A stretch of DNA of 64,000 nt, taken from the NCBI GenBank assembly GCA_951406725.2, contig OX597832.1, forward strand, positions 36,890,001 to 36,954,000, written 5' to 3'. Source of the stretch: Octopus vulgaris (Eukaryota). Below, in pieces: positions 8,092 to 29,296 of this stretch. Every line of letters begins with the position of its first letter. The first letter of the stretch is position 1. Under the pieces are notes generated by a model that did no database searches, had not been told where the DNA came from, and saw only the letters and a list, made by a program, of their open reading frames with translations. Made by a program: the position numbers and the translations under genes.

Positions 8092-9744
8092 TCTTTTGTC
8101 CATGTTGTTGTTCTATTATGACAGTATATACCCAAGTCATCATTTCTTTATTTTATTGACAACCAGCAACAAAAACCATCGTCTTAGACTAACAGATCCT
8201 GCTAGGAAACTATTGAGTGATTGAGTTGATTAAAATGCACACTATATATTCACTTGTTTAACAACAAACATCTGAGAATTGATTTATCTATGTCACACAC
8301 ACACACACACACACGTAAACTTATAATTCCTTGGGTTTTTCATTAAGTGTAAATAGCTTCTTGGAATCTGTTCAATTGATGTCTAAAATCTCAAAAGAAT
8401 TGGTCTTTCTTTTGCTTTATTTATTTTTTTTTTGATTTTTAAAAATATATTGTTGATTTCCATAGCAATAGAAATCTGTGGCGTATGACATTAATGGGTC
8501 GTTAAAGTGTTGCTAGTTAGTTGGCTATAGACAGCTTATCGACCGACCACCGCTGCTGATGATGATGGGAGAGTGTGGTGATGGTGATGGTGGCGTGGCT
8601 GCATTCATTTTTTTTTTTTTTTTTAATCAGTTTCTCTGGTCAGATCCCATCCAATCATTTCAGAGTCCTAACTTGTTGATATTGTGGTTAGAATGTGGAG
8701 GAATAGCAACAAAAATAAACAAAGTCCAACTTTGTGGAATAGAAAAGATTTCAGTTCCTATTGTGATGGTAGTTGTTGTTGCTATTATAAAGTATGGACA
8801 ATGCGTATTTGGTTATTTTGTTGTATTTTCATATTCTTAGTTTTATTCCTGAGTCCAAAGAAAGTTGCCAATAAAGGAATCTCACGTTCGCTTGTATCAA
8901 TATCACAGATTGGTTTTATATCTTTAACCCTTTCTACACAAACTTATCTCATATTTTAGCATTCAGATCTCTCAATTTACACTCTGTCTTAAAACTTTCT
9001 ATCACAATTTTGTCTAAGACTCATTCTGTTATGTTCCTTATACTATTAAGATATACCAAGGTGTACGTATTGATAAACTTCATCTTAATATACCATCATA
9101 CAGTTATTCTTTGTTCCATCCCAATTACCATCTTAATATACCAATATATATATTTGGTTTTAGCTATGTTCCAACCAGCTTCTAAATATACCAATTTACA
9201 TATTAGTCTCTTACGTCCTAAACGCCATCTTTGTCCCTAACCATATTTTTAATATTCTAAATATATATCTTTTGTTATTCCAGACACCAAATTCAAAAAG
9301 CTGGTTATTTTATCAAATACCTCCACCTCCACATCTTAATTATTTTAATTGAATTAAAACACACAGACAATATATCCCATTAGAAATATGGGTCTGAAAG
9401 GATCAGTGCTATGTCATCCACAATATTCCATCATTCCTGTGCATCCTCTCTATCAAATTCTTCATGGTTGAATGGTTAAGATGGTGAATCAGTGGTCTGC
9501 ATAAGTACACAAGTACTTAATTATATCATCTCTAACTTTCCACGATTCCTATACATTATTATGTCTATCAAATCATTTGTAGTTGGATGGTCGAGATGCC
9601 GAACTGATAGTCTGTATGGGTACACAAGTACTCACATAGTCTAGTGTAGCCTGTGTAACTGCAACACACACTATCTACTACAACATTTCAGCTTCCCTGG
9701 ATAACCACACTCTCACAATGAGCATCAACTCAAAAGACAACAGG

Positions 9745-9783
<39 letters not shown>

Positions 9784-9786
<3 letters not shown>

Positions 9787-10161
9787 AAAGAAAATGGAGA
9801 TAAGGGAGTTAACAATTATTTACTATTAACAAATTGGTCATCTTCGCTTCTTACAGCTGTTTCAATTAATACTCAGTAATTTAATTACAAATTTGTACAT
9901 CAAATTTGCATTTATGTTACATGAGAATAATTTCAGCAAAGGAAAAAGAAAATGTACCTTCGGATGTTAAATGTGAAATGAATTGATAGGTACATTTTTT
10001 TTTCTCTGATGAAATTATGCTCATGTCACATAAATGCAAATTTAGCATACAAATTTGTAATTAAATTATTGAGTATTAATTGAAACGGTTGTAAGAAGCA
10101 AAGATTACTAAGTTGTTAATAATAAATAATTAACCTCCTAATCTCCATTTTCTTCTTTTAA
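9784..10161. repeat. Long imperfect inverted repeat (about 175-bp arms, about 28-bp spacer), Penelope-like terminal repeat relic
   Basis: ttaaaagaaaatggaga...aaaatgtacct (9784-9959) is the reverse complement, with mismatches, of aggtacatttt...tctccattttcttcttttaa (9988-10161). Abuts a (TA)n tract. Confidence 0.92.
10001..10098 (+). ncRNA. Type I hammerhead ribozyme motif (minimal stem III)
   Basis: Stem I tttct/agaag; CTGATGA 10006-10012; stem II aatta-tgctca / tgagta-t-taatt; GAAA 10082-10085; stem III C-ggtt-G; GUA triplet 10091-10093. Confidence 0.72.
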
Positions 10162-10306
10162 TTGGATACAAACTATATGTATAATATATACCTATTGTTT
10201 TAAGGGAGTTTCATTCCCCAACAATACTAGGGATTGAACCAGTATTTCCTTGGATGCAACCATCCCTTCAGGAGGTTAACACAACCTCTAATTAAATTTA
10301 CGCATA

Positions 10307-11112
10307 CGAGGTCTGATCAATAAGTATCCAGACTGTTGCCATAGTAACGAAGCTAATGCACGCAGAGTGCAGCCACTTGGCACAGATTGACCATGAATTC
10401 TGCTGTGCATGCACACAAAGTTTTAAAGTTTTACTCTCTTCTGTTTACAGCAGTGCTTGGAAGGAAGGTGTGTAGCATGTGATCGTCGCATTGACCATGA
10501 CTGAGAAAGTTGTCATGGCGATACCTGCTCAGAGGCCTACACAAAGTTGCAGGAAGTGTATGGAGAGGAGTGTATGAGCTGCACGCAAGTGTACAAGTGG
10601 TTTAGACGTTTCCAAGATGGCCACAAAAATGTTGATAGTGGTGTACGTTCTGGGAGACTCGCAGCCAGATGTGTGTGCAGCTGTGAGGGGAAATCGTGAA
10701 ATCACCATCTCTGAGTTATTAGAAGATGTGCAGATTAGTTACAGTTCAGTTCATTCCATTATCACTGAAGATTTGGGTATGAGACGCATGTCTGCCAAGT
10801 TTGTACTAAAACTACTTTCAGTTGACCAAAAACACACAAAATCTCTTAGATTGTATCGAGAACAATGAAAACTTTGTGTAGGCCTCTGAATAGGTATCGC
10901 CAAGCTTTTTGGCAATATTTGATGCAGATTCTCTGCTCAACTTTCTCATGATCAATGTGACAATCACATGCTACATACGTTTCTTCCAAGCACTGCTGTA
11001 AACAGTAGAAGTGAGCCAGAATGTTAAGACTTAGTGTGCTAAGCAGCTTCACTCTGCATGCTTTAGCTTCGTTACTATGGCAATAGTCCAGATGCTTATT
11101 GATCAGACCACG
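10307..11112. mobile_element. Non-autonomous mariner element built from two inverted 5' ends
   Basis: TA|cgaggtctgatcaataagt ... gcttattgatcagaccacg|TA. The + strand has transposase N-terminal remnants (EAYTKLQEVYGEECMS..VYKWFRRF..RSGR; EDLGMRRMSAKFVLKLLS). The - strand has a second N-terminus (EKVEQRICIKYCQK). Confidence 0.9.
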
Positions 11113-11148
<36 letters not shown>

Positions 11149-27899: not shown

Positions 27900-28056
27900 A
27901 GAACCAAGAAGAATAGTTCTAAACAAAGGCTCGACTGGTCTAGGATTCAATATTGTTGGTGGTGAAGATGGAGAAGGGATTTTTGTTTCATTCATTTTGG
28001 CAGGGGGACCTGCCGATCTCAGTGGAGAGCTTCGACGAGGTGACCAAATACATTCG
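27900..28056 (+). CDS. dlg1: Discs large (Dlg) MAGUK internal exon, N-terminal part of PDZ3
   Basis: Acceptor tttcag at 27894-27899, donor gtaagt at 28057. One nt plus 52 codons: [52 protein letters not shown], the GLGF-containing PDZ3 of Dlg/PSD-95/SAP97. Confidence 0.97.
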
Positions 28057-29296
28057 GTAAGTTTCCTATGCTCCTCCTTCTTCTAATACAGCTCACATGT
28101 CTCTTGTTATCCATAAGTGTTTTGTCACTGGTTTCCTGTAGTGTTAAGTGGATGTGAGATAAATCTTCACCTGGATAACACAGCACAGAAAACTTTGTCC
28201 TGTGGAAGAAAGTAAATCCTGGAACTGCAAAATAACGAGCTACTCCTCGATCTTCCACGTAGCACTTCAGCTATACACATACAGTCCGGTGAACTACACC
28301 ACCTACTTCTAGCTATAGTACCAAGTTACAGCGAGGTGAACTCAGTGAAGTCAACCTAGCAGTTAAATACCTGGGCCTATGGCACAAAACAATACCTCTG
28401 ATATAGGAACCACTGACTTTCAGGTTCGTTGTCTGCTGCATTATATTTGTTCACTTCTCTGCAGTACTTTCAAGTAATTCTAAATTTTTATCATGAGCCG
28501 AATCACAAGTACATCAAGTGATTCATCATCAATATTTAAAGTCTGTTTACAATGCTGGCATGGGTTGGATGGCTTGACACAAGCTGGCAACACCGGGTTC
28601 CATGGTCTGTTTTGGCTTGGTTTCTATGGCTGGATGCCTTTCCTAATGCCAACCACTTCACAGAGTGTACTGGGTGTATTTTTTTTACATGACACCAGCA
28701 CCCACACCAATGCTTTTTAAGTGGTACCTTGGTTGTAGTGGGTGCGTCTTCTCGAGTACAATCCATTGATTCATGTTCCCATAAATCTATGTTAACAACA
28801 GGTTGCTTGTTATACTCCCTATATTACAGTACTCCTCCTACTCTCACACTTATCATTTCTGTCTTCATTCTTCAGTCATTTTTCATTTGCACATGCACGC
28901 ATGCACACATACATTCACAACTCTGAAGTGGGGGGGGGGGCTATTCACAACTTCTAACTAGCTTTTATGTTAACCACATAACCCAAAATTACATCCCAAA
29001 AGTTGAGTTCAACTTCAGGGTCAGAAAATGCTTCCAGCCCTGTATATTGTCACCATATACAAGATTTTAAGGTGCAGTTGTGCAAGTTAGGTTGATTCTA
29101 GATTTGAAACAGCTGAATCAAGACATCAGTTGAATTACACAACAGAATTATTTCGTGTCTTACTTATAATTATTACATTATAGGTATTTTCATGTGGTCT
29201 TTACATTATTCTATATCAGTTTACTTTGGGGGAGGACAGCTTTTTGCATGTTTATTCCTTTCTATTGAAATGTATGTTTCTACTTCTATACTCTGT

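What the first reader, a model, noticed from the sequence alone, without database searches (positions are those of the whole stretch)
9784..10161. Ribozyme locked by its own upstream antisense copy: a 175-bp hairpin that is a candidate ADAR substrate
Seen: the intact hammerhead is preceded by a full inverted copy whose own core is broken (UUGCUGA in place of CUGAUGA on the - strand). The antisense arm is transcribed first, so a + strand transcript would bury the ribozyme in long dsRNA. Established: coleoid neural transcripts are heavily A-to-I edited on long duplexes. Inference: the inversion may be what makes a sense-strand intronic ribozyme tolerable, and editing of this A-U-rich duplex could unmask it, giving an editing-gated cleavage switch. 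Inverted termini are also a normal product of Penelope insertion, so the arrangement may be neutral.
Basis: partly seen in the sequence, partly recalled or inferred. Interest (0 to 1): 0.72.

Follow-up and report, generated by a model that had tools for sequence, protein, structure and literature searches.

The report
Penelope-type retroelement's routine head-to-head insertion
The hairpin and the hammerhead-shaped sequence are real, but they belong to one of many copies of a small mobile element that often lands as a back-to-back pair, and a near-identical copy sits unpaired in another intron of the same gene, so the "lock" is likely an insertion by-product rather than an editing-controlled switch.

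Summary
In detail: a ~177-bp-arm hairpin (z -21), a hammerhead core on +, and a broken core on -. The locus is one insertion of a ~587-bp non-coding, microsatellite-targeting repeat family with Penelope-like (PLE) architecture. Of 97 sampled insertions, 42 are head-to-head pairs and none is tail-to-tail; 34 of the 42 have one long and one short arm, as here. In such a pair an antisense arm comes first whichever strand is read. The host is a Dlg1-like gene. A second sense-strand intronic copy 407 kb upstream has the same core, helix II, helix III and cut site, and no antisense partner, so the lock is not needed. The ribozyme has a 2-bp helix III, and both copies carry a loop change that removes most predicted dimer pairing. 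Even with every left-arm A made unpairable, the hairpin stays 22 kcal/mol ahead of the ribozyme fold, and five core As lie in the duplex. Editing is plausible but generic (27 long inverted repeats in this gene) and could not be tested. Residual interest: a long-helix-II hammerhead that Rfam misses, and a strongly non-random long/short arm pairing.

The parts
9747..9782 (.). (TA)n microsatellite, left flank and likely target site
   Evidence: sequence; 96 of 118 arm 3' ends in the family are followed by such a tract vs 21% background
9784..9975 (-). Short arm: inverted, 5'-truncated copy of the family (family positions ~244-443), no tail
9933..9939 (-). Broken hammerhead core of the left arm (UUGCUGA)
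9975..9994 (+). Head-to-head junction; right arm starts near family position 222 and lacks ~21 nt, with a 4-nt microhomology at the gap
   Evidence: read by eye from the alignments
9988..10300 (+). Long arm: family positions ~260-581 including the ~135-bp tail; 97.4% identical to the solo copy L002
9995..10104 (+). Type I hammerhead motif: helix I (9995-10005 with 10094-10104), core 10006-10012, long helix II 10013-10081, GAAA 10082-10085, 2-bp helix III with tetraloop 10085-10092, predicted cut after 10093
   Evidence: activity not tested
10305..11114 (.). Separate element with terminal inverted repeats inserted in the right-hand TA tract (mariner-like by recalled resemblance only)
   Evidence: inverted repeats I2 and I3; loose ends at 10304; no Pfam hit in the one ORF tested
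27913..28059 (+). Downstream PDZ exon of the Dlg1-like host gene (third PDZ by order)
   Evidence: Pfam PF00595 E 3e-11; domain order

Best explanation
This is one head-to-head insertion of a ~587-bp non-coding repeat family, likely a non-autonomous Penelope-like retroelement, in an intron of a Dlg1-like gene, and the hairpin is likely a neutral by-product of how the element inserts. Shown: family membership, pair geometry, long/short arm asymmetry, microsatellite flanks, intronic sense position, unpaired twin. Inferred mechanism: a PLE reverse transcriptase/GIY-YIG protein supplied in trans cuts a (TA)n target; both target ends prime reverse transcription, one at a distal start (~575-587) and one at an internal start (~430-460); the two 5'-truncated cDNAs join head to head by microhomology. 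The copies then decay. The right arm and the twin 407 kb upstream were later homogenised, likely by gene conversion. The ribozyme served the element, is likely weak alone (2-bp helix III, dimer- or protein-assisted type) and is predicted to be further impaired here. A + transcript would fold into the hairpin and may be edited like any long intronic duplex, with no switch function.
For: Family: 1223 first-look candidates, 53 scored matches; 587-bp majority sequence, copies ~90% identical to it. 97 insertions: 42 divergent pairs, 0 convergent, 47 solo, 8 same-strand pieces; 34 of 42 pairs long+short, 1 long+long, 3 short+short, 4 unclassed; P=8e-5 against independent ends after dropping 2 local duplicates. 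A young coding element in the same genome (784-aa ORF, RVT_1 plus C-terminal GIY-YIG) shows the same geometry: 18 divergent pairs and no convergent pair within 6 kb among 150 listed hits (counted by eye; junctions). Literature: inverted 5'-truncated copies, a tail at one end only and (TA)n targets are standard PLE features (PMC8557442, passages); opposite-strand minimal-hammerhead pairs 100-700 bp apart, and no detectable monomer activity in the motif tested (PMC4209133, parts 1-2 of 4); two RT start sites, uncut RNA as main substrate, no cleavage without protein (PMC11167929, passages and end of main text). Twin: L002 lies between the first coding exon and the L27 exon on +, 97.4% over 313 bp, identical from helix I to the 3' strand of helix I apart from the poly-U tract, no upstream antisense piece covering the ribozyme in the gene and no long inverted repeat at it. 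Loop-III octamer self-duplex -9.7 (family) vs -1.8 kcal/mol (window and twin). Core substitution 26 of 592 vs 40 expected, permutation p=0.065. No A>G excess in paired arms: 2.35% vs T>C 2.91%.
Against: No autonomous partner was found: the coding family shares only weak AT-rich similarity (68% over 75 nt, E 5e-4) and no canonical core was found in the two copies scanned, so PLE assignment rests on architecture. The tail (~135 bp) is longer than the 30-40 bp reported. The sample is top-ranked hits of four searches, not random. Core positions are somewhat more conserved than background (Poisson p=0.012, permutation p=0.065). A 2-bp helix III does not guarantee inactivity: an axolotl motif of that kind cut 22% in 1 h as a monomer and a coral monomer cut at ~0.8/min (PMC7229834, passages). 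Retrozymes are depleted from Xenopus introns (10.64898/2026.07.22.740005, part 1 and passages), so selection against intronic hammerheads exists somewhere. The twin is a single control and lies in an intron used by L27-containing isoforms only.
Confidence: 0.86

Rival explanations
1. Passive lock: the ribozyme is active enough to harm the host pre-mRNA, and paired insertions survive in introns because the earlier-made antisense arm captures it during transcription. No editing gate.
For: With the left arm the ribozyme fold is ~83 kcal/mol behind the hairpin. Intronic depletion of retrozymes in Xenopus (10.64898/2026.07.22.740005, passages). Some 2-bp helix III motifs cut as monomers (PMC7229834, passages).
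Against: Unpaired sense twin in the same gene. Intact cores are as common in unpaired as in paired arms, 14 of 22 vs 15 of 25 (host context of those copies unknown). Copies that begin at the cut site are not clearly enriched: 5-6 among 28 rows vs 3 among 45 rows at a control site 9 nt downstream (by eye; total copy denominators only estimated).
Confidence: 0.08
2. Editing-gated switch: ADAR editing opens the duplex, the hammerhead refolds and cuts the Dlg1-like pre-mRNA.
For: Long, short-looped duplex with 134 adenosines. Palindromic repeats and lizard Penelope elements are heavily hyper-edited, and octopus shows one of the two strongest signals (PMC5625713, passages).
Against: Making 50% of left-arm As unpairable leaves a 47-56 kcal/mol gap, 100% leaves 22; modelled as A>G the gap does not shrink. 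Five core As lie in the duplex; if edited independently at 25% only 24% of molecules keep all five. The hairpin is one of 27 long inverted repeats in this gene. The twin needs no gate.
Confidence: 0.02
3. The family is a TA-targeting DNA transposon (MITE or foldback) and the hammerhead-like letters are incidental.
For: No ORF and no partner found; full-length copies have fixed ends in TA tracts with a ~7-nt inverted match (by eye).
Against: Ragged 5' starts, two fixed 3' ends and inversion junctions fit reverse transcription. The motif matched 0 of 20,000 control sequences, and all 28 descriptor hits in the fetched loci were family copies.
Confidence: 0.04

Closest known systems
Endonuclease-positive Penelope-like elements with pLTR hammerheads, microsatellite-targeting types such as Neptune (PMC8557442, PMC4209133)
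   Same: Type I hammerhead with tiny, palindromic helix III upstream of the 3' end; 5' truncation; inverted 5'-truncated copy; tail at one end only; microsatellite targets.
   Different: No ORF; tail ~135 bp rather than 30-40 bp; 69 nt between the core halves and an A-U rather than G-C first pair in helix II; no parent found.
Poseidon element of Anolis (PAc; PMC11167929)
   Same: Two 3' end points consistent with two RT start sites; AT-rich targets; most copies run through the cut site uncut.
   Different: PAc is autonomous, its ORF starts in stem II, and its start sites are closer together. No biochemistry here.
Non-LTR retrozymes (PMC7229834; 10.64898/2026.07.22.740005)
   Same: Small, non-coding, AT-rich, type I hammerhead, proposed PLE-derived.
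   Different: Retrozymes are head-to-tail tandem repeats that give circular RNAs; 0 of 97 insertions here was seen as a whole-unit tandem (same-strand pieces were broken or interrupted copies).
Hyper-edited palindromic repeats, e.g. Xenopus Harbinger and lizard Penelope (PMC5625713)
   Same: A single insertion folds into a long duplex with a short loop.
   Different: Editing not shown here.

Membership tests
Penelope-like element (non-autonomous) | RT + GIY-YIG ORF in the element or a partner sharing its 3' end | tested here: inconclusive
   No ORF in the family; nothing shared upstream of position 1 except microsatellite and other repeats; one coding PLE family tested shares only weak similarity. 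About 15,000 other endonuclease candidates were not examined.
Penelope-like element (non-autonomous) | Inverted 5'-truncated copy adjacent at the 5' end | tested here: met
   42 of 97 insertions divergent, 0 convergent
Penelope-like element (non-autonomous) | Optional tail at one end only | tested here: met
   34 of 42 pairs long+short; length ~135 bp, longer than published
Penelope-like element (non-autonomous) | Microsatellite/AT-rich target | tested here: met
   96 of 118 arm ends vs 21% background
Penelope-like element (non-autonomous) | Partial head-to-tail tandems forming pLTRs | tested here: inconclusive
   None recognised in the 3-kb loci; not searched for separately
Type I hammerhead ribozyme | Conserved core CUGANGA, GAAA, UH | tested here: met
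Type I hammerhead ribozyme | Helices I and II form around the core | tested here: met
   Both helices are largely in the MFE of the isolated arm; the full fold is 4.3 kcal/mol above MFE
Type I hammerhead ribozyme | Stable helix III as monomer or dimer | tested here: inconclusive
   2 bp as monomer; dimer octamer -9.7 in the family majority, -1.8 kcal/mol at this locus
Type I hammerhead ribozyme | G10.1-C11.1 pair and match to Rfam hammerhead models | tested here: not met
   A-U first pair; no hammerhead family at E<=10
Type I hammerhead ribozyme | Self-cleavage | not testable with these tools
   Indirect only: cut-site starts not clearly enriched
Non-LTR retrozyme | Head-to-tail tandem units each with a hammerhead | tested here: not met
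ADAR hyper-edited repeat | Long intramolecular duplex in a transcribed region | tested here: met
   spliced contigs over the gene's L27 exon in 4 of 4 runs guessed to be RNA
ADAR hyper-edited repeat | A-to-G mismatches in RNA reads | not testable with these tools
   Only assembled contigs were available and the element is multicopy

The most novel reading that the evidence does not exclude
The family's long-helix-II hammerhead cuts host pre-mRNA unless masked, and the two-ended insertion mechanism builds a strand-symmetric self-lock that lets paired copies persist in introns; at this Dlg1-like locus editing or unwinding releases the lock as a regulated cut, and the unpaired twin is tolerated only through its own local misfolding.
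Probability: 0.04. Interest if true: 0.75.

Novelty: new member of a known kind. Interest (0 to 1): 0.2.

Why it matters
As it stands it is a tidy example of known PLE biology. Two side results have modest value. The long+short arm rule (32 long+short vs 1 long+long after dropping duplicates) is genomic support for one complex priming both target ends at two different RNA sites, a step left open by the in vitro PLE work. The hammerhead variant is missed by Rfam, so similar families may be under-counted. If the switch idea were true it would link RNA editing to ribozyme control of a synaptic scaffold gene, but the evidence points away from it.

Tried and rejected
Rfam at gathering score and at E<=10: no hammerhead family; the miRNA-type hits reflect the hairpin. 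RNA evidence: no RNA holder listed for the element; laying three large runs and one guessed-RNA run gave multicopy contigs that cannot show editing. Search for a parent: 30 loci found with the 5' part showed no shared coding extension; 30 endonuclease loci and 12 longer stretches gave a coding PLE family that is not clearly the partner. A hammerhead-like string in L196 lay outside that element, was single-copy among fetched loci and failed the descriptor, so it was dropped. First-coding-exon search by motif in 90 kb failed; solved with contig loose ends. Editing signature in retrotransposed copies: none, T>C is at or above A>G. Cut-site starts: 3 of the 100 listed rows of 157 hits start within 2 nt of the cut and 9 start within the 20 nt shown, 8 of them in the last 8 positions (by eye, post hoc); the control did not show enrichment. 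A genome-wide sense/antisense test was not done for lack of gene annotation. Paper searches for octopus+Penelope+hammerhead, ribozyme switch+ADAR and cephalopod editing+inverted repeats+intron listed no description of this family or of a natural editing-gated ribozyme; only listings were seen, subscription papers and Repbase/Dfam were not searchable, and no supplements were read (PMC8557442's supplementary consensus file may hold relatives). The search of earlier findings returned nothing.

Full report
Observation. The two arms and the hairpin are there: 87% complementary over 137 ungapped bases, 83% overall, -186 kcal/mol with z -21. The + arm carries CUGAUGA (10006), GAAA (10082) and a GUA triplet ending at 10093; the - arm has UUGCUGA. 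The motif is more than chance: 0 of 20,000 Markov controls, and two hits in 552 kb, both family copies. Rfam does not recognise it. The apex is bridged by contigs in two runs with different organism labels.

Host context. The only L27_1 match in G000 lies at C19:36.512 Mb on +. Contigs from four guessed-RNA runs cover that exon, and one gave the end of the upstream exon, which maps to 36.410 Mb. PDZ-type exons follow at 36.769, 36.811 and 36.918 Mb. I call this a Dlg1-like gene from the domain order (my knowledge); that all exons form one transcript is inferred.

What it is. The right arm found 1223 first-look candidates. Loci from four searches (30 each, overlapping, top-ranked rather than random) plus L204 define a 587-bp non-coding family. 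Among 97 insertions there are 42 head-to-head pairs, no tail-to-tail pair, 47 solo copies and 8 same-strand pieces. 3' ends cluster at ~430-460 and ~573-587; 5' ends are ragged, with a cluster at 211-226 and another at the element start. In 34 of 42 pairs one arm is short and one long; after dropping two local duplicates, 32 vs 1 long+long gives P=8e-5 against independent choice. 96 of 118 arm ends run into a microsatellite, against 21% background. The window locus has exactly this form. A young RT + GIY-YIG element in the same genome shows the same head-to-head geometry but is not shown to be the partner. Published PLE features match: inverted 5'-truncated copy, one-sided tail, microsatellite bias (PMC8557442, passages); opposite-strand hammerhead pairs and weak, dimer-dependent activity (PMC4209133, parts 1-2 of 4); two RT start sites, uncut template, protein-assisted cleavage (PMC11167929, passages and second part of main text).

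Is the lock needed? L002 (36.493 Mb) lies in the intron between the first coding exon and the L27 exon, on the sense strand. It is 97.4% identical to the right arm over 313 bp and identical across core, helix II, helix III and cut site. No antisense piece covering the ribozyme lies upstream of it in the gene, and no long inverted repeat covers it. The two share 17 substitutions and 2 deletions that the left arm lacks, and a diagnostic 15-mer occurs at these two places and one other, at about the control rate. Flanks are unrelated and their 5' parts differ, so I infer gene conversion; a local retro-duplication is not excluded. Broken cores are common: where both arms of a pair cover the core, 11 of 20 have both intact, 6 one, 3 none (part of this sample was found with the core pattern). 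Core positions mutate at 4.4% vs 6.8% expected, permutation p=0.065, a weak hint of constraint during the family's spread.

Is the ribozyme active? Untested. Helix III is 2 bp with a tetraloop. The family majority can self-pair as a dimer (-9.7 kcal/mol for the octamer); the window and twin share a loop change that leaves -1.8. Against over-reading this, some 2-bp helix III motifs do cut as monomers (PMC7229834, passages). About 97 of 100 listed copies extend upstream past the cut site, and starts at the cut site (5-6) are not clearly more frequent than at a control site (3). Cut RNA could simply be a poor template, so this is indirect.

Could editing unmask it? With both arms the ribozyme fold is 83 kcal/mol behind. 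Blocking 10, 25, 50, 75 and 100% of the 70 left-arm As leaves about 77, 72, 50, 29 and 22; A>G modelling leaves 76-90. This spares the right arm, which is generous: A6, A9, A13, A14 and A15.1 are all in the duplex. Editing itself is plausible (PMC5625713, passages) but generic, since this is one of 27 inverted repeats of 100 bp or more within ~3 kb in the gene. No read data could test it. Retrotransposed copies show no A>G excess.

Verdict. Real feature, ordinary cause: a new non-autonomous member of a known kind by architecture, with the parent not found. Neutral by-product 0.86, passive lock 0.08, DNA-transposon reading 0.04, editing-gated switch 0.02. The better-supported small novelties are the long+short arm rule and a long-helix-II hammerhead that standard models miss.

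Noticed in passing
L202:2671-5022 (G000:C7:103.97 Mb) and ~100 similar hits: A young coding Penelope-like family with intact 784-aa RT + GIY-YIG frames, copies 95-100% identical, TA-flanked, often in head-to-head pairs; no canonical hammerhead core found in the two copies scanned.
   Followed up: partly
L002:1473-1810 vs window 9988-10300: Two copies 407 kb apart in one gene share 17 substitutions and 2 deletions up to the element's 3' end but not flanks; likely ectopic gene conversion, direction unknown.
   Followed up: partly
family positions 211-226: Strong cluster of 5' starts and inversion junctions at a short self-complementary stretch just after a pyrimidine-rich region ending in AG; could be a transcription start, a 3' splice site or a fold-back point.
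   Followed up: no
family positions 360-367: 8 of 9 visible 5' junctions in a 20-nt view fall in helix III or at the cut site; post hoc and not confirmed by the control.
   Followed up: partly
window 10305-11114: Element with 92-nt terminal and 64-nt internal inverted repeats inserted in the TA tract right of the finding; very high depth; mariner-like by recalled resemblance.
   Followed up: no
G000:C19:36769891-36770190 and 36869490-36869951: Near-perfect palindromes (99% over ~150-bp arms; 93.5% over ~230-bp arms) in introns of the same gene, the first ~0.6 kb after the first PDZ exon; better dsRNA candidates than the finding.
   Followed up: no
L061:1500 (L27 exon): Contigs in X18 and X21 show two different sequences joined upstream of the L27 exon, suggesting alternative upstream exons; only one was mapped.
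   Followed up: partly
G000:C19:36774307-36774757 and 36415114-36415164: An old (72%) antisense family copy and a tail-only antisense fragment in the same gene.
   Followed up: no
window 9449-9517 and 9564-9632: Two 69-nt direct repeats, 74% alike, 115 bp apart, just left of the insertion.
   Followed up: no
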